Shown here piece after piece: positions 7,952 to 51,357 of a DNA stretch of 64,000 bases; the stretch's first letter is position 1, and each line of letters begins with the position of its first letter. Source of the DNA: the human T2T-CHM13v2.0 reference genome, Homo sapiens. The notes beneath the pieces are model-generated. The model was not told the origin of the DNA and did not search any database. It saw nothing but the letters and a program-made list of their open reading frames with translations. Made by a program: the position numbers and the translations under genes. The stretch is from the NCBI RefSeq assembly GCF_009914755.1, contig NC_060940.1; one strand, 5' to 3'.

Positions 7952-8305
7952 GTAGTAAATCCAGGACTCAAACATAAGTTTGTGATTTATAATGTAGACA
8001 AAGGCATTGTAAGGAGTTACAAGTGGTCATTTAGACATATCCTAGAGTACTCTAAGATCATCCTAACCAATATTACTTTCCTATCATAAGGGTTATACCA
8101 CTTGCATGGAGGATCATGATGACAGTCACCTGTCAGGATTTTCTTCCATTTATAAGTCCACGAAAAGCCTATGTTTTCTCTGCCTCTGAAATTGTGCATT
8201 AAAGTCTCAATCTGTGCTTGGCACTTGACAGGTACTCAGTATAAATCATATATCCTTGCAATTATCGACCCCATGATTACCAAATTACCTATGTGTCAAG
8301 TAGAA

Positions 8306-8331
8306 AGGAGGAAAGAGAAAGAAGAAAGAAA

Positions 8332-8383
<52 letters not shown>

Positions 8384-8440
8384 AAAAGAAAGAAAGAAAG
8401 AAAGAAAGAAAAAGAAAGGAGGGATGGAGGGGAGAGAGAA
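8306..8440. repeat. (GAAA)n polypurine microsatellite
   Basis: Visible aaagaaagaaag array. Confidence 0.95.
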
Positions 8441-13761: not shown

Positions 13762-14023
13762 TTTCTCTCCTTTTCTTCCTTTCTACCTCCTTTTCTTTCT
13801 TCCTTCTTCCTCTCTTCTCCACTCCCTCCTCCCTTTGTTCCTTCCTTCCTTTCTTCCTTTCCTTCTTTCCTTCCTCCCTCCTTTCTACCTCCTTTTCTTT
13901 CTTCCTTCTTCCTCCCTTCCTCACTCCCTCCTTCCTTTTTCTTTCCTTCCTTTCTTCCCTTTCTTCTTTCCTTCCTTTCTCCCTCCCTCTCTCTCACCCT
14001 TTCTTCTCCTCTCCCCTTCTCTT
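13762..14023. repeat. CT-rich polypyrimidine low-complexity tract
   Basis: About 260 bp of almost pure C/T; internal ~50-bp duplication (13779 and 13881). Confidence 0.92.
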
Positions 14024-14492
14024 TATAATGGTGAACTGAGTCAGGTGGGTCTTTCTGCTATGGACTGACAGTTCTCCCTCTCCGTCTCTACTGGGGTACC
14101 AACATCACACATCACAGTTTAATGTATATTATTTTTGCCAGCCTCTCAGTTCCACAAAGACAGACACTGTTATTCTTGTTTTACTCAATGTCTCTAGAGG
14201 TTAACACAATGCATGGCCCACACAAGGCACTCACTGTCCAGTTGACAAGGACCTGTTCAGTCTTCTACAGCACAGCTTTGATGGGAGAGGCCACCAGCCT
14301 AGGGTGAGGATGTTGAAGCTGCTATAGAAGCTGAGACTGCAGCACATCAGCGATTAGATGAACCTCTTAAAATAGCACTGTGGAAGGGGATGTGGGTCAC
14401 TGCCTACTTGGTATTGCCTTTGGAAGTAGAAATGGAATATAATGTGGACTCCTACTGGGAGTGCCTCCTGCCCTGTTCATGTCTGTCCATAA

Positions 14493-36205: not shown

Positions 36206-37272
36206 CTATTATTCATTCATTTTTCATCATCTATTTATTCCCCATTCATTTATTGTTTATAACACTATTTCACACACACATACACAGAAGTTAAATTAAC
36301 TGACATTTAGAAAATGACCCTAACATAGCATTTAAAGTCAAACAGAAAGATCAGAGTCTACAGAGAGGAAGGGAAAGGTAACCATATCAGAGCTTAGCAT
36401 GAGACAATTACTGCAGTAAAGAATTGAGGTTAGCTCAGAGTCCCTTGGCTGCCAAACTGATGGAAAGAAGCATAGCAGCATCCTAGAACAAATAGTTCCT
36501 ATTCTGGACCTAAACACTAAGTGGCAGTTATAAGGGAGGAAGGTAAGATGGGACTAAGTAAGACTGACTTTGGCTGAACCTGCAGACTTCTAGGGAGAAC
36601 GTGTTTAGGCTTGACCCTTAAGTCCATAGAAAGTTGCATTTCAAATTTCCTGTGGTTGTTCCAGAAATTCTCTCCCAGAAGTCCAGGACAGTACAGAGAT
36701 TCACTGCCAGCTTGCCAGCTTTGGGAATAAGCCTTCATCCTTACCATCATCATGAGGAACACTTAAACATTTATGCTACATTTACATTTACAAAATGCTC
36801 TTGTATTTTCTTCTTCTTTTCATTCTCATGTCCACCTGAGGAGTCTGTTGTCAAGTATATGGTCATTCTCATTTTATAGATGAGTAAGCTGAGGGTCAGA
36901 GAGGGCTTGATTTTCTGGAGACACACAATAAAGACAAGCAACTCAATTCTAGAATCTGGATTCCTCTCCCCTCTTCTCCCAGAGCAGCTCATGCCACTGC
37001 CACTCCTTGACTACTTTGAGGACAGCAACCAAAATACAAGTAATCTCAGGTGGCAATCAGAAGTTATGCATTTGAAATTCATTTGACTCCACTGAGAATC
37101 CATATTAAAGGACCTGAGATTCCAACATGGACTTTAAAATTCTGCAAAAGTGTCATTTCCAATGTCATTTCAAAGTGCTGCAAAGTGGCCTGTGGCCTTC
37201 TCTGGAAAAAGTAAAGCAGATGTTTTGTTTTGCTTTCCCCAGTCATTCTTAGGTATCGATGTTTTCACATTA

Positions 37273-37566
<294 letters not shown>

Positions 37567-38395
37567 TAATGTCATTCTTAAATTATCTAGAAACTAAGAA
37601 ACAAAGGATAAAAGCTTCTGCACAGTCAGAGAAGGCAATGTTCATTCTGTTCCCTCTTTATTTGCACATACTTATTCAGGTTTTTCACTCTTATTTTACA
37701 CAGAACTCAAATGTCTGTAATTACCTGATATTCAAACCCACAGCATATTAGAAACAGTAACTGGAAAGAGAGAAGAGTGGGTACACGAACAATTAGGCAT
37801 AAGGATTTAAAACACGAAACCATCTAGAAACATTTAGTTCAGGGGCAAAGTGTCTTTGTGCACCTCAGTTTCCCCTAACAGCTTTAGTTTATTTAAGCAG
37901 AGCAGCATAATCTGTGCTCATAAAGATATTTCCAAATTATTTTTTAAATCCAAATAATGTTGTGTATACTGCACTTGAAATAGTGGCAATAGTTTTTTCT
38001 GTTTGTGTGCTTGTTTGCTTGCTTTTAAAATATTTTTCATTCAAAACAGTCAAAATAAAATAAGTAATTGCTTCAGTGTTTAAAGCGCAGAAGCCTTGGA
38101 TCTATGGAAAGTAAGAGTACCCAGTATAACTCATTAACTCAATAAACATTTACTGTGTAAAAATTGTACATCAGGAACCGTGGATGGAGAAATAAATAAT
38201 ATTGATCCCTGTCTTCAGGAAGCTCAACATTTAATTTGAGAATATGTCCCCAGGGATCTGCATTGCTGAGATTTTTATGGTATAAAAGGATGATGGTTAA
38301 ATCCTTCCTGTTCTACGAGTCTTAGGACTCCCAGAGGTGAGCACCACTGAATCAAAGCCTTGAAGTTTGAGAAGAAGCAACAGGATTCATATATT

Positions 38396-38770
38396 AAGGA
38401 AAGAAGGAAGGAAGGAAGAAAACAGGGAAGGAAGAAGGGAGGAAGGAAGGAAGGAAGGAAGGAAGGAAGGAAGGAAGGAAGGAAGGGAGGGAGGGAGGGA
38501 GGAAGGAAGGAAGGGAGGGAGGGAGGGAGGAAGGAAGGAAGGAAGGTAGGTAGGTCTTGGAGTCAGAGAAGTTGGTACATCCCCCATCTCTGCTACTAAC
38601 TTTCTGATTGACTTTATAAACCAGTCAATTTTTCTGGGTCTCATCAAATTTTTCAGAAGGAAGGAAAGAAGAAAGGAAGGAAGGAAAGAAGGAAGGAGGG
38701 AGGGAGGGAGGGAGGGAGGGAGGGAGGAAGGAAGGAAGGAAGGAAGGAAGGAAGGAAGGAAGGAAGGAAA
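38396..38770. repeat. Bipartite GGAA/GGGA microsatellite with a ~100-bp unique insert
   Basis: (GGAA)11 at 38441-38484 and (GGAA)11 at 38726-38769 flank the insert at 38553-38654. Confidence 0.95.
38553..38654 (+). repeat. Direct duplicate, copy 1 (partner 40015-40120)
   Basis: Manual alignment: 9 substitutions and one 4-bp indel over about 105 bp. Confidence 0.93.
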
Positions 38771-40014
38771 GGGGAAAACTGAAAAAGGTTGGCCAGACCG
38801 AACTGGAAGCTGGAGGGTAAAGAAATCCCCTGGTGCAGATGGTAGAGGTCAGGCACAGAGCAGAGTGAAAACAGAGCACGTCTGGAGAGGCAAATAGAAC
38901 ATGTTCATTCCTGCCACACTGATCCATTCCAACATGGAGTCCACTTTGCTCAGGATCAAAGGACATTTTCCCATTAGCATCAGAAGTGGTCTCATGATCC
39001 TTCTCAGCAAGCCCTCCAGGCAGAGTAGAGTCATTGGTTAAAATTGGACCGTAAGTTGGGCCATATTTCCCATCCTTGCCCAACACAGTCTTGAACCTTC
39101 TTTCATATTCTTTTTTCGTTGGTTTGATTGTCTTGATTTTAGTAATGCCTTATCACTTTTTGAAAGGTGATTTTAACTTGTGTTTGCTGAAACCACCATA
39201 TTGATAATGCTTTGTGGATATAAAATATCCAGAGAGACAGAAACATTGTCATGAAAAAAAAAGCACTGGACTTTGTTTTAGAAATCTCCGTATCTTACTA
39301 ACGAGATTGGCTGATCTTGGACAAGTCATGTGCTTCATGGGAGCCTAAGATCTAACCTATGTGTAGTAGGAATGATGAAGTTACCTCCCAGAACACCAAG
39401 GATGTTAACTTTTACAAGGGAAAAATACAAAAAAAAAAAAAAAAAAAAAAAAAGGTGCTGCATGATTCATAAGAAAGTAGTGATTTTTTAGTTTAGTTAT
39501 TATTTTTTAATAAGGCATCATAAAGAGGTGAAGAGATCAAGCTGTAGGTTAGAAAACAAGGCTTTGAAACTTGGCTCTGGAACTTCCTAGCTGGGTGACA
39601 ATGAGCAAATGTCATAATCTTTCCAAACCTCAGTTTCCTTATCTACAAATGGGAATGACTGCAGCACCCACCTCACAGGCTACTTGTTTCATGATATTCA
39701 ATGAGGATAACCAAAAGCATTAATTATTACTGCCTTGTTATGGCTGCAGAGGATGCCTTCAGAGCAGGGAGCAAGTCCATACGTTATTCACTAATTTGAT
39801 AGCATTTATTGTGCCTTGTCAGGGTCTAAGATTTATGATTTAGCTGGAGACAGACATCAACAGGCCTTTCTACTTCTCCTGAGACCACAGCCATAAACAA
39901 AATTAAACTCCTGAGTGCTGTTCCCTCCAAACATTTCTCCTCAATTTTGTTTGCCCAAGTTTCAGAGACCATTACTTCAGTCATGATTTTCAATGTGAGC
40001 TGATTGAAATCACT

Positions 40015-40120
40015 GGTCTTGGAGTCAGAGAGGTTGGTGCATCCATCCCCCATCTGTGCTGCTAACTTTCTTATTGACTCTATAAACCAGTAAATTTCTC
40101 TGGATCTCATCAAATTTTTC
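40015..40120 (+). repeat. Direct duplicate, copy 2 (partner 38553-38654)
   Basis: ggtcttggagtcagagaggttggtg...ctcatcaaatttttc, followed by a GA-rich tract as in copy 1. Confidence 0.93.
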
Positions 40121-40167
40121 TGAGGAGAGAAACGAAGGAAGGAAGGCAGGGAGGGAGGGAGGGAAGC

Positions 40168-40825
40168 ATTGATTTACACCAGACAACCCACTAAAAGTTT
40201 TCATTTTATAATAACTGTAACACCATCAACCATTCTTTGAAAGCACATCTGTTGGCTTCCAGAGTTTCTTCATCACTCTTAGACGTGGAAGGTGTTTAAC
40301 AAGCTCAAAAAGACACACAAATATCAAGCACCTACTCTGTGACTGGCATCAGATCTATATTTAATACACTTTGGGTATTTTCTGAAACAAAGATGATTTT
40401 CCATAACCAATTCCCAAACCAAGAACATGCATGCATCTGTGTCCGGCAGAGTGGAAGTAATGAACATGAATGCCACCTTTGTTAAATTCTGAAATGGACC
40501 TAAAGGTGCCCGAATTCTATATAAAGTCATATTGCTAAGCTTTGATTCATACCTAATTTCCTCAAATGGGAAGGGTGGAGGATTAGTTGAATGAAGGGCT
40601 GCTGTAGAAAGAGCAACACATGTCTTCTTGGCGAATGTCTGCTTTTCTTCCAGTTATTAGAGTTAATGCCAGCACAGGAAGGGAGCAGCAGGGGCCAGAG
40701 TTGTTTTTCCCCTTAGAGCAACAGGGAGAATGTACTGCAGATAAGAGTCACCCGAGTGTTTGGCTTTTGGAAATGGAATTAGAATTGCTGTATACATGTC
40801 AACTGGATCTGGGAAGCCTGACAAT
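40168..40825 (+). repeat. Inverted duplication, left arm (~655 bp)
   Basis: Reverse complement of 44060-44717; manual count about 30 substitutions and two 2-bp indels (~95%); the ORF track shows mirror peptides on opposite strands. Confidence 0.97.
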
Positions 40826-42218
40826 TCTTCTCCCTGCCCCCATCTCTTAATTCTGATTACTGCCAGACTGAGACCTATCTATCAGTTCTGAACGTTAAGT
40901 GCAAGAAAGGTTTCATTGTGAGGGGAGAGTTGGGGGGAACTGGCCTTATTTTACCAGGAGAAGGCTATTATCTTGCAACAGCTGTTTATAGTTAACTGCA
41001 GCCCATACTTAAAGCCTGAATGTTAGAGCCTTATTTAGTGCCTGTGGATTTGTGGTGAACAGAGTCAGGCTTAACTCTTTCTTCCCCACGTTGCTAATGA
41101 TAGAAATGAGGTGGAGGGGATCTGCAAACAAAGAGGGTGACACGGAAGAGGGCTGGAGCATGGAAGCAGGGCAAGCAGTTATTTCAAATGAGGGTGACTA
41201 CTGAGGTTTTACTGCATGTTAGGGATGCATGGAGCATGTTGCATGCATTATTTCCATTAATTTTGACCATCAGCACTCTGATATTGATATGATTCCACCT
41301 ATTTCACAGGGGAGAAAAAGGAGGCTTAAGCAAGAACGCCAGGATTCAAGTCCAGAAGAATTCAACTGCAGAACCAAAGCTCATAAACCCTAGATATGTA
41401 TCTTGTTAATTCAGAAGCTTTAACTGAGGATATTCAAGATGGCCTGCACTGTGCTGGCCTAGCTATCATGGATAGAGGGTTTCCACCCCACAGGACCCTT
41501 AGGCTGGCCAGAAAGGTAAGCGAATACAGTTGATACACTGAGGATGGAGAAAGGCAGTGAAAACCACATAAACTTCTCACTCTAGGGGAAACAGAGTAGA
41601 TCAGAACTCAGAGGAATTTAGGGAGGGTGGCAGAATTTATACAAACGAAGCTCATTTCAAGAAGAGAACACAGCTGCTGAAATACATACATACATACACA
41701 CACATACATACACATGTATATACGTACATGCATTGCAGAGAGAAACACTCAGAATTGTTTCAGAGAGGGCTGGGAGGGGTAAGCAGGGCCCGAGCCCCAG
41801 GAGCACTCTGGCTGCCCCTGCACAAACTTAGACTTGATTTCTACAGGTGACAAGCAACAAGGTGGTCAGAGCTACATTTTAGAAAGGTCACTCTGGCTGC
41901 AGGGGCAACAAGGTTGTGGAGGTGGCAAAAGATGTCAAGAAAAGTCAGTACATTCTATGACAACCCAGGGAAAGGAAAAAAAGGCCAGAACTATAGAAGT
42001 GGGCAGTTGGGAATGGAATCAAGAGATGTGTTGCAGGTAGAACAAGTAGAAATGTGTTCATTTCTTTGCCTCTCTAAAGACTAAAGAGAGGTTAAATTTT
42101 CCAGCAGGAAGTTGGAAGGAGCATTGCTCAAACCACTAACCCAACCCCAAATGATATACATTCCTGAGGGTTACAATGCTAACCAGTGGTGTTGGGGGTG
42201 GCAGTGAGACTGCACCAG

Positions 42219-42245
42219 CACACACACACACACACACACACACAC
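42219..42245. repeat. (CA)13 microsatellite
   Basis: Visible run. Confidence 0.95.
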
Positions 42246-43163
42246 TTTCATTTACTCAAAACGTCTGGAATTTTTGCTCTCCTCTTTGTTTGACTCCAAC
42301 ATCTTTTCTGATGACAAAGAAAACCAAAGATTTTGAAATCCATTGTTGAGCACAAAGAGAGGCGGAGTAAGAGGGTTGTGGGGGAAAAGTTGGCCGACTC
42401 TGAACTTTATACCCTGCCTTGGTACCCAACAATTCGCAGTGGGAGAGAGAGTAGCTTGCCAAAGAGCTCTGTGTGACTGGGCTAAGCTAGAAGAATATGT
42501 AAAGTTCAAGATGAAAAGACAGCCCTCACAGCTGAAAACAGAGCTGGGAGCTAACAGAGCTTGGGAAAGGAGACTTCACAAAGAAAAGTGCTTATCTGCA
42601 AACTCGTTTCTCTGCAGCAAACGCTCCCAGGACCTCTGGCAAAAGGAATTCCTGGACACAGGCCTTTCCACTGAGCTTTTAGTGATCTGTGGTTAATTAC
42701 TTCTCGCCAGGCTCTCTTCTACAGCCAATCCATGGGGCAACCTGCAGAGGCCTGGGGTAGAGGTTTTGCCATTTTAATTCCAACATTCAACAAAGTTAAA
42801 GTTTTACAACTGCAGAACTGGGAAGAACCTTACTTCTCCTTCTACTCAGAATTCCTAATTTTTGCTGGAGTGGTGGGTCAGACAATACAGGGAGAAAGGC
42901 CAGGCTGCCTGTGAGACAGCAGCATCTGCTGCCTGCAGGGGGCTGGGGATACCAGCAAGGGGTGTCTCTCCTGCTGTAAGGAAGTCCAGGAGAATCTGAC
43001 GGTCACTCAGCAAAAAGGGCTGTTCTGGTCTGCCCCAGGGCATTCTTGCAATTGAGCCACAGATTTGCTACCATTGGCCAAATGGACTAAGGCTTCTTCC
43101 AGCACTGCATCCTGGACTCGCATGATTTTACATCAAAACAAAACAAGTTTCCTGAAAAGAAGG

Positions 43164-43618
43164 TGTTTTAGACAGGGTTCTCCAGAGAAACAGAAAAGCA
43201 TGTCTATTCTATCTATCTAGCTATCTACCTATGTATCAATACTATCAAGAGATTTTTTAAAAATTGGCTCCTGAGGCTACAGGGGACAGCAGGTCTGAAA
43301 TTTATAAGCCAGGCCAGCCCATTCAGGTCAGAGTGGATGTTGCAGTCTTGAGTCCAAATTCCACAGCGCAGCAAGATGGAAACTTAGGCAGGGTTTTTAA
43401 TTTTGCAGTCTTGAGAATTCATTCATCAGGGAACTTCTGTCTTTGCTTTTAAGGTCTTTAACTGATTGGATGAGGCCCACCCACATCTCTTAAAGTCTAC
43501 TGATTTAAATGTCGATCACACTGTTAAAATACCTTCACAGAAAAATTTAGACTAGCATTTGACCAAACGAGCAGGCACCATAGCCTAACCAAGTTGACAC
43601 ATAAAACTTACCATCATA
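43164..43618 (-). mobile_element. MLT2 (ERVL) solo LTR
   Basis: cagggttctccagagaaacagaa...aactgattggatgaggcccacccacat...ccaagttgacacataaaacttaccatca; perfect 5-bp TSD GAAGG (43159-43163, 43619-43623). Confidence 0.88.
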
Positions 43619-44059
43619 GAAGGTATTACAACAGTGTGTAAAGCAAGACAAAAGTCTATATATTGTGGAATATATAACTGGCAAAGGATTGAGATTAATA
43701 CAGGACCATGCATTTTATTGTACTCAAAACCATTTCAGATAACTGAATTTCCTACACACTAGAGAGAATAATGACCCCCCACCTAACTCAAAGATTCCCA
43801 GTCCCCTGCCCCACTTGCAGTCCCCACCAACACACCCACTAGAGGCCTATTCCTCCAGGAGTCCGGGGTCCCTATCAACCTCCCTTGGACCTCAGACAGT
43901 GGGCAGCACTGACCAGTGACATACACCAAGTGGGGATGTCCTCCAGCCTGGGAGACCCTGTGTGCTAGGGATAAAGTCGCTGCCTTCAAATTTTTGTCTT
44001 TTCTTCCCTAACTAGGGTTTAACTCAGGCCATTCTACATCTACCTGCACCCCCACCCCT

Positions 44060-44717
44060 ATTTTCAGCCTTCCCAGATCAAGCTGACATGTATACAGCAA
44101 TTCTATTTTCATTTCCAAAAGCCAAACACCCGGGTGAGTCTTATCTCTGGTACATTCTCCCTGTTGCTCTAAGGGGAAAAACAACTCTGGCCCCTGCTGC
44201 TCCCTTCCTGTGCTGGCACTAACTCTAATAACTGGAAAAAAAGCAGACATTTGCCAAGAAGACATATGTGTTGCTCTTTCTACAGCAGCCCTTCATTCAA
44301 CTAATCCTCCACCCTTCCCATTTGAGGAAATTAGGTATGAATCAAAGCTTAGCAATATGACTTTATATAGAATTTGGGTGCATTTAGGTCCATTTCAGAA
44401 TTTAGCAAAGGTGGCATTCATGTTCATTACTTCCACTCTGCCGGACACAGATGCATGCATGTTCTTGGTTTGGGAATTGGTTATGGAAAATCATCTTTCT
44501 TTCAGAAAATACCCAAAGTGAATTAAATATAGATCTGATGCCAGGCACAGAGTAGGTGCTTAATATTTGTGTGTCTTTTTGAGCTCGTTAAACCCCTTAC
44601 AAGTCTAAGAGAGATGAAGAAACTCTGGAAGCCAACAGATGTGCTTTCAAAGAATGGTTGATGGTGTTATAGTTATTAAAATGAAAACTTTTAGTGGGTT
44701 GTCTAGTGTAAATGAAC
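44060..44717 (-). repeat. Inverted duplication, right arm (~655 bp)
   Basis: Reverse complement of 40168-40825. Confidence 0.97.
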
Positions 44718-44940
44718 CTTCCTTCTTCCTTCCTTTCTTTCTCCCTCCCTCTGTCCTTTCCTCCCTCCTTTCCTCCCTTCCTTCCTTTCTTCCTTCTTGT
44801 ATTTTATTGATTACAATAACTCAAAACTTTTAGTGGGTTGTCTGGTGTAAATGAATCTTCCTTCCTTTCTTTCTTCCTTCCTTCTTCCCTCCCTCCCTCT
44901 CTCCCTTTCTTCCTTCCTTCCTTCCCTCTTTCTTTCCTTT
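44718..44940. repeat. Bipartite TTCC/TCCC microsatellite containing a ~35-bp re-copy of the arm end
   Basis: aaaacttttagtgggttgtct(a/g)gtgtaaatgaa at 44684-44716 and again at 44823-44855, each followed by TTCC repeats. Confidence 0.93.
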
Positions 44941-45073
44941 CTATTAGCTATTTTTTTCTGATGTGGTCATGTATTTGACCACGAGGAGAATTCCAATGCA
45001 TTTCAAAAAGCATAAGTTACACAAAACTTCTTGTTTTGCCACTATAAAACAAAATTAGAAATTAAGAAGCAGC

Positions 45074-45240
45074 AGCCAGGTGTGGTGGCTCACACCTGTA
45101 ATCCCAGCACTTTGGGAGGCTGAGGGGGGTGGATAGCTTAAAGCCAAGAGTTCAAGACTACCTGGGCAACATGGCAAATCCTCATCTCCACCAAAATTAC
45201 AAAAATTATTTAGTCTCATGACCGTGTTTCAAAAAAAAAA
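45074..45240 (+). mobile_element. Alu remnant (left arm; right arm almost entirely missing)
   Basis: gccaggtgtggtggctcacacctgtaatcccagcactttgggaggc...aaaattacaaaaatta, then gaccgtgtttc and an A-run. Confidence 0.85.
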
Positions 45241-45424
45241 TTAAAAAGCAAAACAAAACATATGAGATAACAAATACATATATAGCGATTTTTCCTGATG
45301 CACTCCCTCCCTCCACTGCCCTCCTTCCCCCAATTGTGGGTTTTTATGTTCCTTCTTATTTTAAACCAAGAGATAACAAAAGGGAAAAACATTTTAGGGA
45401 GACATAAATTCAAAAAAAAAAGTC

Positions 45425-46453
45425 GCTGGAGCCAAGATGGCCGAATAGGAACAGCTCCAGTCTACAGCTCCCAGAGTGAGCGATGCAGAAGACGGGTGAT
45501 TTCTGCATTTCCATCTGAGGTACCGGGTTCTTCTCACTAGGGAGTGCCAGACAGTAGGCGCAGGACAGTGGGTGCAGCACACCCTACGCAAGCGGAAGAA
45601 GGACGAGGCATTGCCTCAGGAAGCGCAAGGAGTCAGGGAGTTCCCTTTCCTAGTCAAAGAAAGGGGTGACAGACGGCACCTGGAAAATCGGGTCACTCCC
45701 ACCCCAATACTGCGCTTTTCTGACGAGCTTAAAAAACGGCACACCAGGAGATTATATCCCGCACCTGGCTCAGAGGGTCCTATGCCCACGCAGTCTCGCT
45801 GACTGCTAGCACAGCAGTCTGAGATCAAACTGCAAGGCGGCAGCAAGGCTGGGGGAGGGGCGCCCACCATTGCCCAGGCTTGCTTAGGTAAACAAAGCAG
45901 CCGGGAAGCTCGAACTGGGTGGAGCCCACCACAGCTCAAGGAGGCCTGCCTGCCTCTGTAGGCTCCACCTCTGGGGGCAGGGCACAGACAAACAAAAAGA
46001 CAGCAGTAACCTCTGCAGACTTAAATGTCCCTGTTTGACAGCTTTGAAGAGAGCAGTGGTTCTCCCAGCACGCAGCTGGAGATCTGAGAAGGGGCAGACT
46101 GCTTCCTCAAGTGGGTCCCTGACCCCTGACCCCCGAGCAGCCTAACTGGGAGGCACCCCCAAGTAGGGGCAGACTGACACCTCACACAGCCGGGTACTCC
46201 TCTGAGACAAACCTTCCAGAGGAACGATCACACAGCAGCATTCGCAGTTCACGAAAATCCGCTGTTCTGCAGCCACTGCTGCTGGTACCCAGGCAAACAG
46301 GGTCTGGAGTGGACCTCTAGCAAACTCCAACAGACCTGCAGCTGAGGGTCCTGTCTGTTAGAAGGAAAACTAACAAACAGAAAGGACATCCACACCTAAA
46401 ACCCATCTGTACATCACCATCATCAAAGACCAAAAGTAGATAAAACCACAAAG
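45425..46453 (+). promoter_or_regulatory. L1 5'UTR: internal sense promoter with YY1 site, plus antisense promoter region
   Basis: YY1 motif AAGATGGCCG at 45434-45443; CpG-rich UTR; sense and antisense promoter activity is known for primate L1 5'UTRs but is not shown for this copy. Confidence 0.75.
45616..45870 (-). CDS. L1 ORF0 (antisense ORF), open, 84 aa
   Basis: ATG at 45870-45868 gives MVGAPPPALLPPCSLISDCCASSQRD...GVTRFSRC, matching ORF0 (MAGAPPPASLPPCSLISDCCAS...); expression unknown. Confidence 0.6.
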   Translation of the reverse strand: MVGAPPPALLPPCSLISDCCASSQRDCVGIGPSEPGAGYNLLVCRFLSSSEKRSIGVGVTRFSRCRLSPLSLTRKGNSLTPCAS

Positions 46454-47470
46454 ATGGGGAAAAAACAGAGCAGAAAAACTGGAAACTCTAAAAAGCAGAG
46501 CGCCTCTCCTCCTCCAAAGGAACTCAGCTCCTCACCAGCAACGGAACAAAGCTGGATGGAGAATGACTTTGACAAGTTGAGAGAAGAAGGCTTCAGATGA
46601 TCAAACTACTCCGAGCTACAGGAGGAAATTCAAACCAAAAGCAAAGAAGTTTAAAACTTTGAAAAAAATTTAGACAAATGTATAACTAGAATAACCAATA
46701 TAGAGAAGTGCTTAAAGGAGCTGATGGAGCTAAAAGCCAAGGCTTGAGAACTACGTGAAGAATGCAGAAGCCTCAGGAGCCGAAGCGATCAACTGGAAGA
46801 AAGGGTATCAGTGATGGAAGATGAAATGAATGAAATGAAGTGAGAAGGGAAGTTTAGAGAAAAAAGAATAAAAAGAAAGGAACAAAGCCTCCAAGAAATA
46901 TGGGACTATGTGAAAAGCCCAAATCTACGTCTGATTGGTGTACCTGAAAGTGATGGGGAGAATGGAACCAAGTTGGAAAACACTCTTCAGGATATTATCC
47001 GGGAGAACTTCCCTAATCTAGCAAGGCAGGCCAACGTTCAGATTGAGGAAATACAGAGAACGCCACAAAGATACTCCTCGAGAAGAGCAACTCCAAGACA
47101 CATAATTGTCAGATTCACCAAAGTGGAAATGAAGGAAAAAATGTTAAGGGCAGCCAGAGAGAAAGGTCGGGTTACCCACAAAGGGACGCCCATCAGACTA
47201 ACAGTGGATCTCTCGGCAGAAACTCTACAAGCCAGAAGACAGTGGGGACCAATATTCAACATTCTTAAAGAAAAGAATTTTCAACCCAGAATTTCATATC
47301 CAGCCAAACTAAGCTTCATAAGTGAAGGAAAAATAAAATACTTTACAGACAAGCAAATGCTGAGAGATTTTGCCACCACCAGGCCTGCCCTAAAAGAGCT
47401 CCTGAAGGAAGCATTAAACATGGCAAGGAACAACCGGTACCACCCACTGCAAAAACATACCAAATTGTAA
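46454..47470 (+). pseudogene. L1 ORF1p, disrupted
   Basis: ATG GGG AAA AAA CAG start, 1017-bp frame kept; premature stops at 46598, 46652, 46745 and 46841 (three look like CGA>TGA); C-terminal part NLRLIGVPE...RISYPAKLSF intact. Confidence 0.95.
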
Positions 47471-47533
47471 AGACCGTCGAGACTAGGAAGAAACTGCATC
47501 AACTAATGAGCAAAATAACCAGCTAACATCATA

Positions 47534-51357
<3,824 letters not shown>

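What the first reader, a model, noticed from the sequence alone, without database searches (positions are those of the whole stretch)
40168..44717. ~655-bp inverted duplication of mostly unique DNA around a 3.2-kb spacer: candidate flippable segment
Seen: 40168-40825 is the reverse complement of 44060-44717 at about 95% identity (manual count about 30 substitutions and two 2-bp indels; longest perfect stretch about 40513-40620). The arms are not a recognisable transposon pair; they hold only a short L2-tail remnant. Established: closely spaced inverted repeats mediate recurrent NAHR inversions and gene conversion. Inference: the spacer 40826-44059, which includes an MLT2 LTR, may be inversion-polymorphic or inverted between primate species.
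Basis: partly seen in the sequence, partly recalled or inferred. Interest (0 to 1): 0.8.

Follow-up and report, generated by a model that had tools for sequence, protein, structure and literature searches.

The report
Small old inverted duplication, LINC00922 intron
Two 0.66-kb copies of otherwise unique DNA face each other across 3.2 kb inside an intron of a human non-coding RNA gene; the duplication is real and old, but nothing available shows that the piece between them flips, so it looks like an ordinary neutral relic.

Summary
Window 40165-40825 is the reverse complement of 44060-44716. There are 31 substitutions and two 2-bp indels over 655 aligned bases (95.3% identity, K2P 0.049). The longest perfect run is 107 bp. 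The arm has only these two full copies in the whole T2T genome, so it is a local duplication, not a transposon family.

Both arms abut GGAA-type microsatellites on their outer side. The right side also carries a third, 34-bp partial copy and a second array. The inner ends are sharp and lie in unique DNA.

The flipping idea is not supported for common human variation. The T2T-based inversion callset from 41 genomes has no chr16 row between 54.4 and 81.25 Mb, although it holds calls as small as 495 bp. Four other supplements also gave nothing here. Only 6 of 319 untested inverted duplication pairs of 1-50 kb were polymorphic in 54 people. Orientation in other primates could not be tested.

Best reading: a neutral, roughly 15-30 Myr old inverted duplication, too short for the 1-kb segmental-duplication cut-off. 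Interest is low.

The parts
40015..40135 (+). Left outer flank. Together with the array that follows, it is an older direct duplicate of 38553-38701.
   Evidence: blastn: 40015-40164 vs 38553-38701, direct, 83% over 153 columns
40136..40164 (+). Short GGAA/GGGA-type microsatellite abutting the outer end of the left arm
   Evidence: TRF period 4, 7.2 copies; sequence read; BLAST homology with the right side runs into it
40165..40825 (+). Left arm of the inverted duplication
   Evidence: unique in the genome apart from the right arm
40826..44059 (.). 3234-bp spacer. Mostly single-copy DNA with small microsatellites: a (CA) run at 42219-42245 and TCTA at 43203-43246.
   Evidence: whole-genome search; TRF; both ends unique
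43248..43629 (.). Old dispersed repeat inside the spacer.
   Evidence: query positions 2423-2804 of the spacer match all 39 other scored places on many chromosomes at 67-81% identity; 1522 first-look candidates, 40 scored including the query's own place
44060..44716 (-). Right arm of the inverted duplication
   Evidence: (95% identity, E 2.9e-297)
44717..44796 (-). CCTT-type array (GGAA on the arm's own strand) abutting the outer end of the right arm
   Evidence: TRF period 4, 20 copies; sequence read
44797..44822 (.). 26-bp filler of undetermined origin between the two right-hand arrays
   Evidence: sequence read; its best local matches to the left flank and arm are reached by 203 of 500 and 118 of 500 shuffles
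44823..44856 (-). Third, partial copy: 34 bp of the arm's outer end
   Evidence: 97% identical to 40168-40201. With its array it is a direct repeat of 44684-44798 (82% over 115 columns).
44857..44939 (-). Second CCTT-type array, beyond the partial copy
   Evidence: TRF period 4, 20.8 copies

Best explanation
This is a small, old, lineage-specific inverted duplication of single-copy DNA in an intron of LINC00922, at T2T chr16:71,340,165-71,344,716. A piece of about 0.66-0.69 kb, comprising a GGAA microsatellite plus unique sequence, was copied once in reverse orientation 3.2 kb away. The two copies have since drifted apart to 4.9% divergence. Inferred mechanism of origin: a break- or replication-associated template switch (fold-back or templated insertion). 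Its outer junction formed in purine-rich GGAA arrays that lie in opposite orientation on the two sides. It left a 'stutter' of a 34-bp partial copy plus a second array. Its inner junction was a non-homologous join. Inferred present state: a neutral, decaying inverted repeat. It could in principle support non-allelic homologous recombination, but only poorly, because no perfect tract exceeds 107 bp. It is not a common inversion polymorphism in humans. No function is expected. If the intron is transcribed through, it can form a long RNA stem as a by-product.
For: Shown:
- The genome holds exactly two full copies, both local.
- Identity is 95.3%, K2P is 0.049, and the longest perfect run is 107 bp.
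- Differences are spread nearly evenly along the arms: P = 0.08 for the longest gap, P = 0.04 for the emptiest 340-bp window, P = 0.10 for the densest 90-bp window. There is therefore no clear sign of recent gene conversion or exchange.
- Both outer ends lie at GGAA-type arrays. A 34-bp extra copy with a second array lies on the right.
- The left flank plus its array has an older direct paralogue 1.46 kb upstream (83%). This makes the left copy the likelier original.
- The inner ends are sharp and lie in unique DNA.
- No Rfam family reaches its gathering score, and none of the 13 weak matches lies in the arms.
- 8 of the 29 open frames of 60 aa or more were scanned; there were 0 Pfam hits at the cut-off and only two chance-level matches.
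- The T2T-based inversion callset has no chr16 row between 54,414,611 and 81,251,607, yet it lists PAV calls of 495-1263 bp on the same chromosome (number-prefix search empty).
- Published base rate: 6 of 319 (1.9%) untested inverted duplication pairs of 1-50 kb were polymorphic in 54 people.

Inferred:
- The age of roughly 15-30 Myr comes from K = 0.049 and neutral primate rates recalled from memory.
- The template-switch mechanism and its details are inferred from the anatomy.
Against: - The mechanism of origin is not demonstrated. No significant microhomology or shared sequence was found at the inner junction (96 of 1000 shuffles reach the best direct match). The 26-bp filler has no identifiable source.
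- The transition:transversion count of 16:15 is lower than I would expect for neutral human DNA, though the sample is small.
- The absence of inversion calls is negative evidence from catalogues that miss some small or rare inversions. 37 polymorphic inversions were missed by the 2022 study, and 56.8% of those were of low frequency and/or small.
- Validated human inversions exist with repeats as short as 140 bp, so arm length alone does not exclude flipping.
- No primate genome was compared, so neither the age nor the constancy of orientation has been tested.
Confidence: 0.62

Rival explanations
1. Flippable segment. Recombination between the arms inverts the 3.2-kb spacer, so the locus is a rare human inversion polymorphism and/or differs in orientation between primate species.
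For: The architecture is right: an inverted pair at 95% identity, 3.2 kb apart. Repeat-flanked inversions recur in humans and apes (Aguado 2014, passages seen). Validated cases have repeats down to 140 bp. Just after the duplication the arms were nearly identical, so early flips are plausible (inference).
Against: There is no call at this place in the 41-genome T2T callset. The held parts of the supplements of HGSVC3 (cut when stored), Giner-Delgado 2019 (12 of 14 files), a human-macaque inversion table and a 2026 benchmark also gave nothing. The searches by hg38, hg19 and hg18 numbers rest on coordinates I estimated from memory. The base rate is 1.9% for longer pairs. The longest perfect tract is 107 bp, and I recall that efficient homologous exchange in mammals needs about 200 bp or more. 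There is no clear clustering of differences that would mark an exchange.
Confidence: 0.2
2. Footprint of an ancient inversion made by staggered breaks. The spacer was inverted once, and the stretch between two staggered nicks at one breakpoint was filled in on both sides. In this model the inverted duplication is the result of an inversion, not its cause. The model is recalled from work on Drosophila inversions and not from any call.
For: The layout fits the model: one duplicated block at both ends of a segment, in inverted orientation, with sharp inner ends. The messy right outer junction would be a novel join in this model too.
Against: Nothing in a single haplotype separates this from a templated insertion. 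No dispersed repeat spans either inner boundary to show which arm-spacer join is ancestral. The 34-bp extra copy with its second array is more typical of repeated template switching (inference).
Confidence: 0.12
3. Terminal inverted repeats of one mobile element, or two copies of a young transposon family.
For: Only the inverted symmetry itself.
Against: The genome holds just two full copies of the arm, both at this locus. The spacer ends are also single-copy. No transposase-like or other Pfam domain was found in the 8 of 29 open frames scanned.
Confidence: 0.01
4. Functional RNA hairpin. When the LINC00922 intron is transcribed (minus strand), the arms pair into a stem of about 626 bp that is edited by ADAR or processed into small RNAs, with a regulatory or innate-immune effect.
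For: Predicted duplex of the two arms as RNA: -1130 kcal/mol, with 626 of 657 and 626 of 661 bases paired. According to the hub's gene table the window lies wholly within LINC00922 and holds none of its exons.
Against: No expression or editing data were available. No known RNA family lies in the arms. The arms diverge at a near-neutral level with no sign of compensatory constraint. Introns with inverted repeats are common (general knowledge).
Confidence: 0.05

Closest known systems
Inverted segmental duplications (low-copy repeats) that flank NAHR inversions, e.g. the HsInv series of Aguado 2014 and Giner-Delgado 2019
   Same: A pair of inverted copies of non-transposon DNA at over 90% identity, a few kb apart, in one chromosome arm.
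   Different: The arms are 0.66-0.69 kb, below the 1-kb cut-off of the duplication track (definition seen). The repeats in Table 1 of Aguado 2014 are 2.7-24 kb. No second orientation has been seen here.
Inverted duplications made by fold-back or serial template switching (MMBIR/FoSTeS type; the DUP-TRP/INV-DUP literature, of which only a search listing was seen)
   Same: An inverted copy close to its source, one junction in repetitive homologous sequence, and a short extra partial copy that looks like a stutter.
   Different: This is an old, fixed, sub-kb event and not a pathogenic rearrangement of tens to hundreds of kb. Microhomology at the inner junction was not demonstrable.
Inverted duplications flanking inversions formed by staggered breaks (recalled from Drosophila comparative genomics)
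   Same: One block duplicated in inverted orientation at the two ends of a segment.
   Different: No outgroup was available to show that the segment between the arms was inverted when the duplication arose.

Membership tests
Segmental duplication (UCSC track definition as quoted) | At least 90% identity between the copies | tested here: met
   95.3% over 655 aligned bases
Segmental duplication (UCSC track definition as quoted) | At least 1 kb long | tested here: not met
   661 and 657 bp of unique sequence; about 690 bp with the microsatellite
Segmental duplication (UCSC track definition as quoted) | Not made entirely of transposable elements or simple repeats | tested here: met
   Only two copies genome-wide
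Repeat-mediated (NAHR) polymorphic inversion | Inverted repeats at both ends of the segment | tested here: met
Repeat-mediated (NAHR) polymorphic inversion | Both orientations observed in a population | tested here: not met
   No row for this place in the T2T-based callset of 41 genomes. Nothing in four further supplements. These are catalogues only; no reads or assemblies were examined.
Repeat-mediated (NAHR) polymorphic inversion | Exchange of paralogous variants between the arms, which maps the breakpoints inside the repeats | not testable with these tools
   This needs a second haplotype or an outgroup. Within the one haplotype the differences show no clear tract structure.
Transposable element with terminal inverted repeats, or a young repeat family | Multiple dispersed copies in the genome | tested here: not met
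   Two full copies, both local
Template-switch (fold-back / MMBIR-type) inverted duplication | Microhomology or homology at the junctions | tested here: inconclusive
   The outer junction lies in GGAA-type arrays present on both sides. At the inner junction nothing stands above chance.
Staggered-break inversion footprint | An outgroup without the duplication carries the segment in the opposite orientation | not testable with these tools
   No primate genome was on hand

The most novel reading that the evidence does not exclude
The spacer has flipped at least once, either between ape lineages or as a rare human allele. That would make this a toggling locus driven by repeats shorter than the 1-kb segmental-duplication cut-off, and so invisible to screens that start from the duplication track. 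A possible by-product is that the same arms give the LINC00922 primary transcript one of the longer non-Alu double-stranded RNA stems in the genome (626 predicted pairs).
Probability: 0.2. Interest if true: 0.35.

Novelty: new member of a known kind. Interest (0 to 1): 0.15.

Why it matters
It matters little in itself. The locus lies in a gene-poor stretch and in an intron. The hub's table lists no functional element, and I found no RNA family or protein domain.

Its modest value is as an example of a class that standard screens skip. The large 2026 survey drew its untested candidates from inverted duplications of 1-50 kb, so inverted duplications under 1 kb were left out. If such pairs do flip, the count of potentially toggling sites in the human genome is understated.

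The GGAA arrays at both outer ends, together with the stutter copy, also make this a tidy case for the idea that purine-rich microsatellites seed template switching.

Tried and rejected
1. Transposon pair: rejected. The genome holds only two full copies.
2. Using an old repeat that spans an arm-spacer boundary to tell the original arm from the copy, or to reveal a past flip: no dispersed repeat was found at either inner boundary.
3. Source of the 26-bp filler at 44797-44822: its best matches to the left flank and arm, on either strand, are at chance level (203 of 500 and 118 of 500 shuffles reach them).
4. Microhomology or shared sequence at the spacer ends and beyond the microsatellites: not above chance (96 of 1000, 601 of 1000, 104 of 500 and 110 of 500 shuffles).
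5. Gene-conversion tracts: only marginal unevenness (P = 0.04-0.10).
6. Known RNA families: none in the arms. There are only Alu-like SRP matches at 37280-37555 and 45075-45188 and weak microRNA-like matches in a microsatellite, all below gathering scores.
7. Coding remnants: 8 of the 29 open frames of 60 aa or more were scanned. None gave a Pfam hit at the cut-off.
8. Literature:
- There is no 'chr16' in the main text of Aguado 2014, Giner-Delgado 2019 or Moreira-Pinhal 2026.
- Phrase searches across table cells do not work. One search failed on a row known to exist, so says nothing.
- The Cell 2022 and Nat Genet 2020 inversion papers are not held.
- Supplemental Table S1 of the 2026 survey was not looked at.
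- The search for LINC00922 with a chr16 coordinate found no paper.
- The search was too loose to say anything.
9. Earlier findings of this scan were not open.
10. Naming the repeat families (L2, MLT2): no repeat library was available.
Full report
**What is there.**
- The repeat finder reports two adjoining inverted pairs: 40206-40621/44266-44681 (416 nt, 96%) and 40616-40825/44060-44269 (210 nt, 93%).
- A global alignment of 40165-40825 with the reverse complement of 44060-44716 has 31 substitutions (16 transitions, 15 transversions, 4 in CpG context) and two 2-bp indels over 655 aligned bases. That is 95.3% identity and a Kimura distance of 0.049.
- The longest perfect runs are 107 bp (40513-40619), 93, 69 and 57 bp.
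- It is the only self-match of at least 150 bp and 88% identity in the 64-kb window.

**Not a transposon.**
A search of the window's own complete genome with the left arm found the arm itself, the right arm (95%, E = 2.9e-297) and one 34-bp piece at 44823-44856. It found nothing else.

**The spacer.**
- The spacer (40826-44059) is also mostly single-copy.
- The only dispersed repeat seen is 43248-43629. It matches all 39 other scored places on many chromosomes at 67-81% identity, out of 1522 first-look candidates.
The names MLT2 and L2 could not be checked because no repeat library was on hand.

**Anatomy of the ends.**
- Both arms end outward at purine-rich GGAA-type microsatellites: 40136-40164 on the left and 44717-44796 (read as CCTT on the plus strand) on the right. 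BLAST carries the homology into them (40136-40825 vs 44060-44746).
- Beyond the right-hand array lie a 26-bp filler (44797-44822), a third partial copy of the arm's outermost 34 bp (44823-44856, 97% to 40168-40201) and a second array (44857-44939).
- Together, 44823-44934 is a direct repeat of 44684-44798 (82%).
- At the two sites where the full arms differ within those 34 bp (40171 and 40180), the partial copy agrees once with each arm. It therefore looks as old as the duplication itself.
- On the left, the flank plus its array (40015-40164) has an older direct paralogue at 38553-38701 (83%). This makes the left copy the likelier original.
- The inner ends are sharp at 40825 and 44060 and lie in unique DNA.
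- I found no significant microhomology or shared sequence at the inner junction or beyond the arrays, and no source for the 26-bp filler.

**How it most likely arose (inference).**
- An inverted copy sits close to its source. One junction is buried in arrays that lie in opposite orientation on the two sides. A short stutter copy lies beside it, and the other junction is a clean non-homologous join.
- This pattern fits a break- or replication-associated template switch (fold-back or templated insertion).
- A rival I cannot exclude is the staggered-break model, in which the duplication is the by-product of a single ancient inversion of the spacer. Only an outgroup can separate the two.
- With K = 0.049 and neutral primate rates that I recall (about 1e-9 per site per year), the copies have diverged for roughly 15-30 Myr. 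That places the origin somewhere around the early ape lineage. This figure is an estimate and not a measurement.

**Does it flip?**
Nothing I could reach shows that it does, and several things speak against a common human polymorphism.
- In the supplementary callset of Porubsky et al. 2023 (Genome Biol 24:100) I read part 5 of 14 of file 1. The callset covers 41 genomes according to the abstract and is made against T2T-CHM13 v1.0 (methods passage).
- Its chr16 rows jump from 54,414,611 to 81,251,607, with nothing near 71.34 Mb. The same sheet lists PAV calls of 495, 812, 1112 and 1263 bp on chr16.
- One row starts at 91.2 Mb, beyond the length of chr16 in GRCh38 as I recall it. The sheet must therefore be in T2T coordinates.
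- A number-prefix search of both of that paper's files was empty.
- The held supplements of four other papers gave only unrelated hits or none:
  - HGSVC3 (one file, cut when stored).
  - Giner-Delgado 2019 (12 of 14 files).
  - A human-macaque inversion table.
  - A 2026 inversion benchmark.
- Those searches used hg38, hg19 and hg18 positions that I estimated from recalled LINC00922 coordinates, so they are weaker than the T2T check.
- In the main text of Moreira-Pinhal et al. 2026 (sections and passages read), 6 of 319 (1.9%) previously untested inverted duplication pairs of 1-50 kb were polymorphic in 54 people. This pair is shorter than any of those.
- Against my reading, the same paper notes validated inversions with repeats as short as 140 bp. 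It also reports 37 polymorphic inversions that the 2022 catalogue missed, 56.8% of which were of low frequency and/or small. A rare allele is therefore not excluded.
- Within the single haplotype, the differences between the arms are spread almost evenly (P = 0.04-0.10 for three clustering statistics). There is no clear mark of recent exchange or conversion.
- Orientation in other primates could not be tested.

**Other readings.**
- No Rfam family reaches its gathering score in 37000-48000, and none of the 13 weak matches lies in the arms.
- 8 of the 29 open frames of 60 aa or more were scanned against Pfam. None gave a hit at the cut-off.
- The window lies inside LINC00922 (minus strand) without any of its exons, according to the hub's table. 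The intron RNA could therefore fold the arms into a long stem: the predicted duplex is -1130 kcal/mol with 626 pairs.
- That is a physical consequence of the repeat and not evidence of a role. No expression or editing data were at hand.

**Verdict.**
It is a genuine local inverted duplication of unique DNA, but flipping remains an untested possibility. It is unlikely as a common human variant, and I give about one chance in five that it has flipped somewhere among primates or exists as a rare human allele.
- The structure is an ordinary member of a known kind: a small inverted low-copy repeat below the 1-kb duplication cut-off.
- It is of low interest unless primate or long-read data show toggling.

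Noticed in passing
window 38396-38554, 38656-38769 and 38553-38701 vs 40015-40164: Two long GGAA/AAGG arrays lie 1.4-1.8 kb left of the arm. The 100-bp unique piece between them, plus the start of the second array, is an 83% direct duplicate of the left arm's outer flank plus its array. The locus has therefore been duplicated around such microsatellites more than once.
   Followed up: partly
window 37280-37555 (-) and 45075-45188 (+): Alu-like fragments lie in opposite orientation on either side of the whole structure. They give SRP RNA matches below the gathering score, and 45088-45208 is 80% identical, inverted, to 37428-37548. They form a second, outer inverted pair about 7.5 kb apart.
   Followed up: no
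window 8302-8424 and 13786-14024: Further long purine- or pyrimidine-only tracts of the same GGAA/GAAA type lie elsewhere in the window. Such arrays recur across this part of the LINC00922 intron.
   Followed up: no
window 41682-41715 and 42219-42245: Small microsatellites lie in the spacer: an ACAT/ACAC-rich tract that draws weak microRNA-family matches far below gathering scores, and a perfect (CA) run of 13.5 units. The latter could serve as a polymorphic marker for phasing the spacer.
   Followed up: no
window 40165-40825 vs 44060-44716: The transition:transversion count between the arms is 16:15, lower than the roughly 2:1 I recall for neutral human DNA. The sample is small and I have no explanation.
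   Followed up: no
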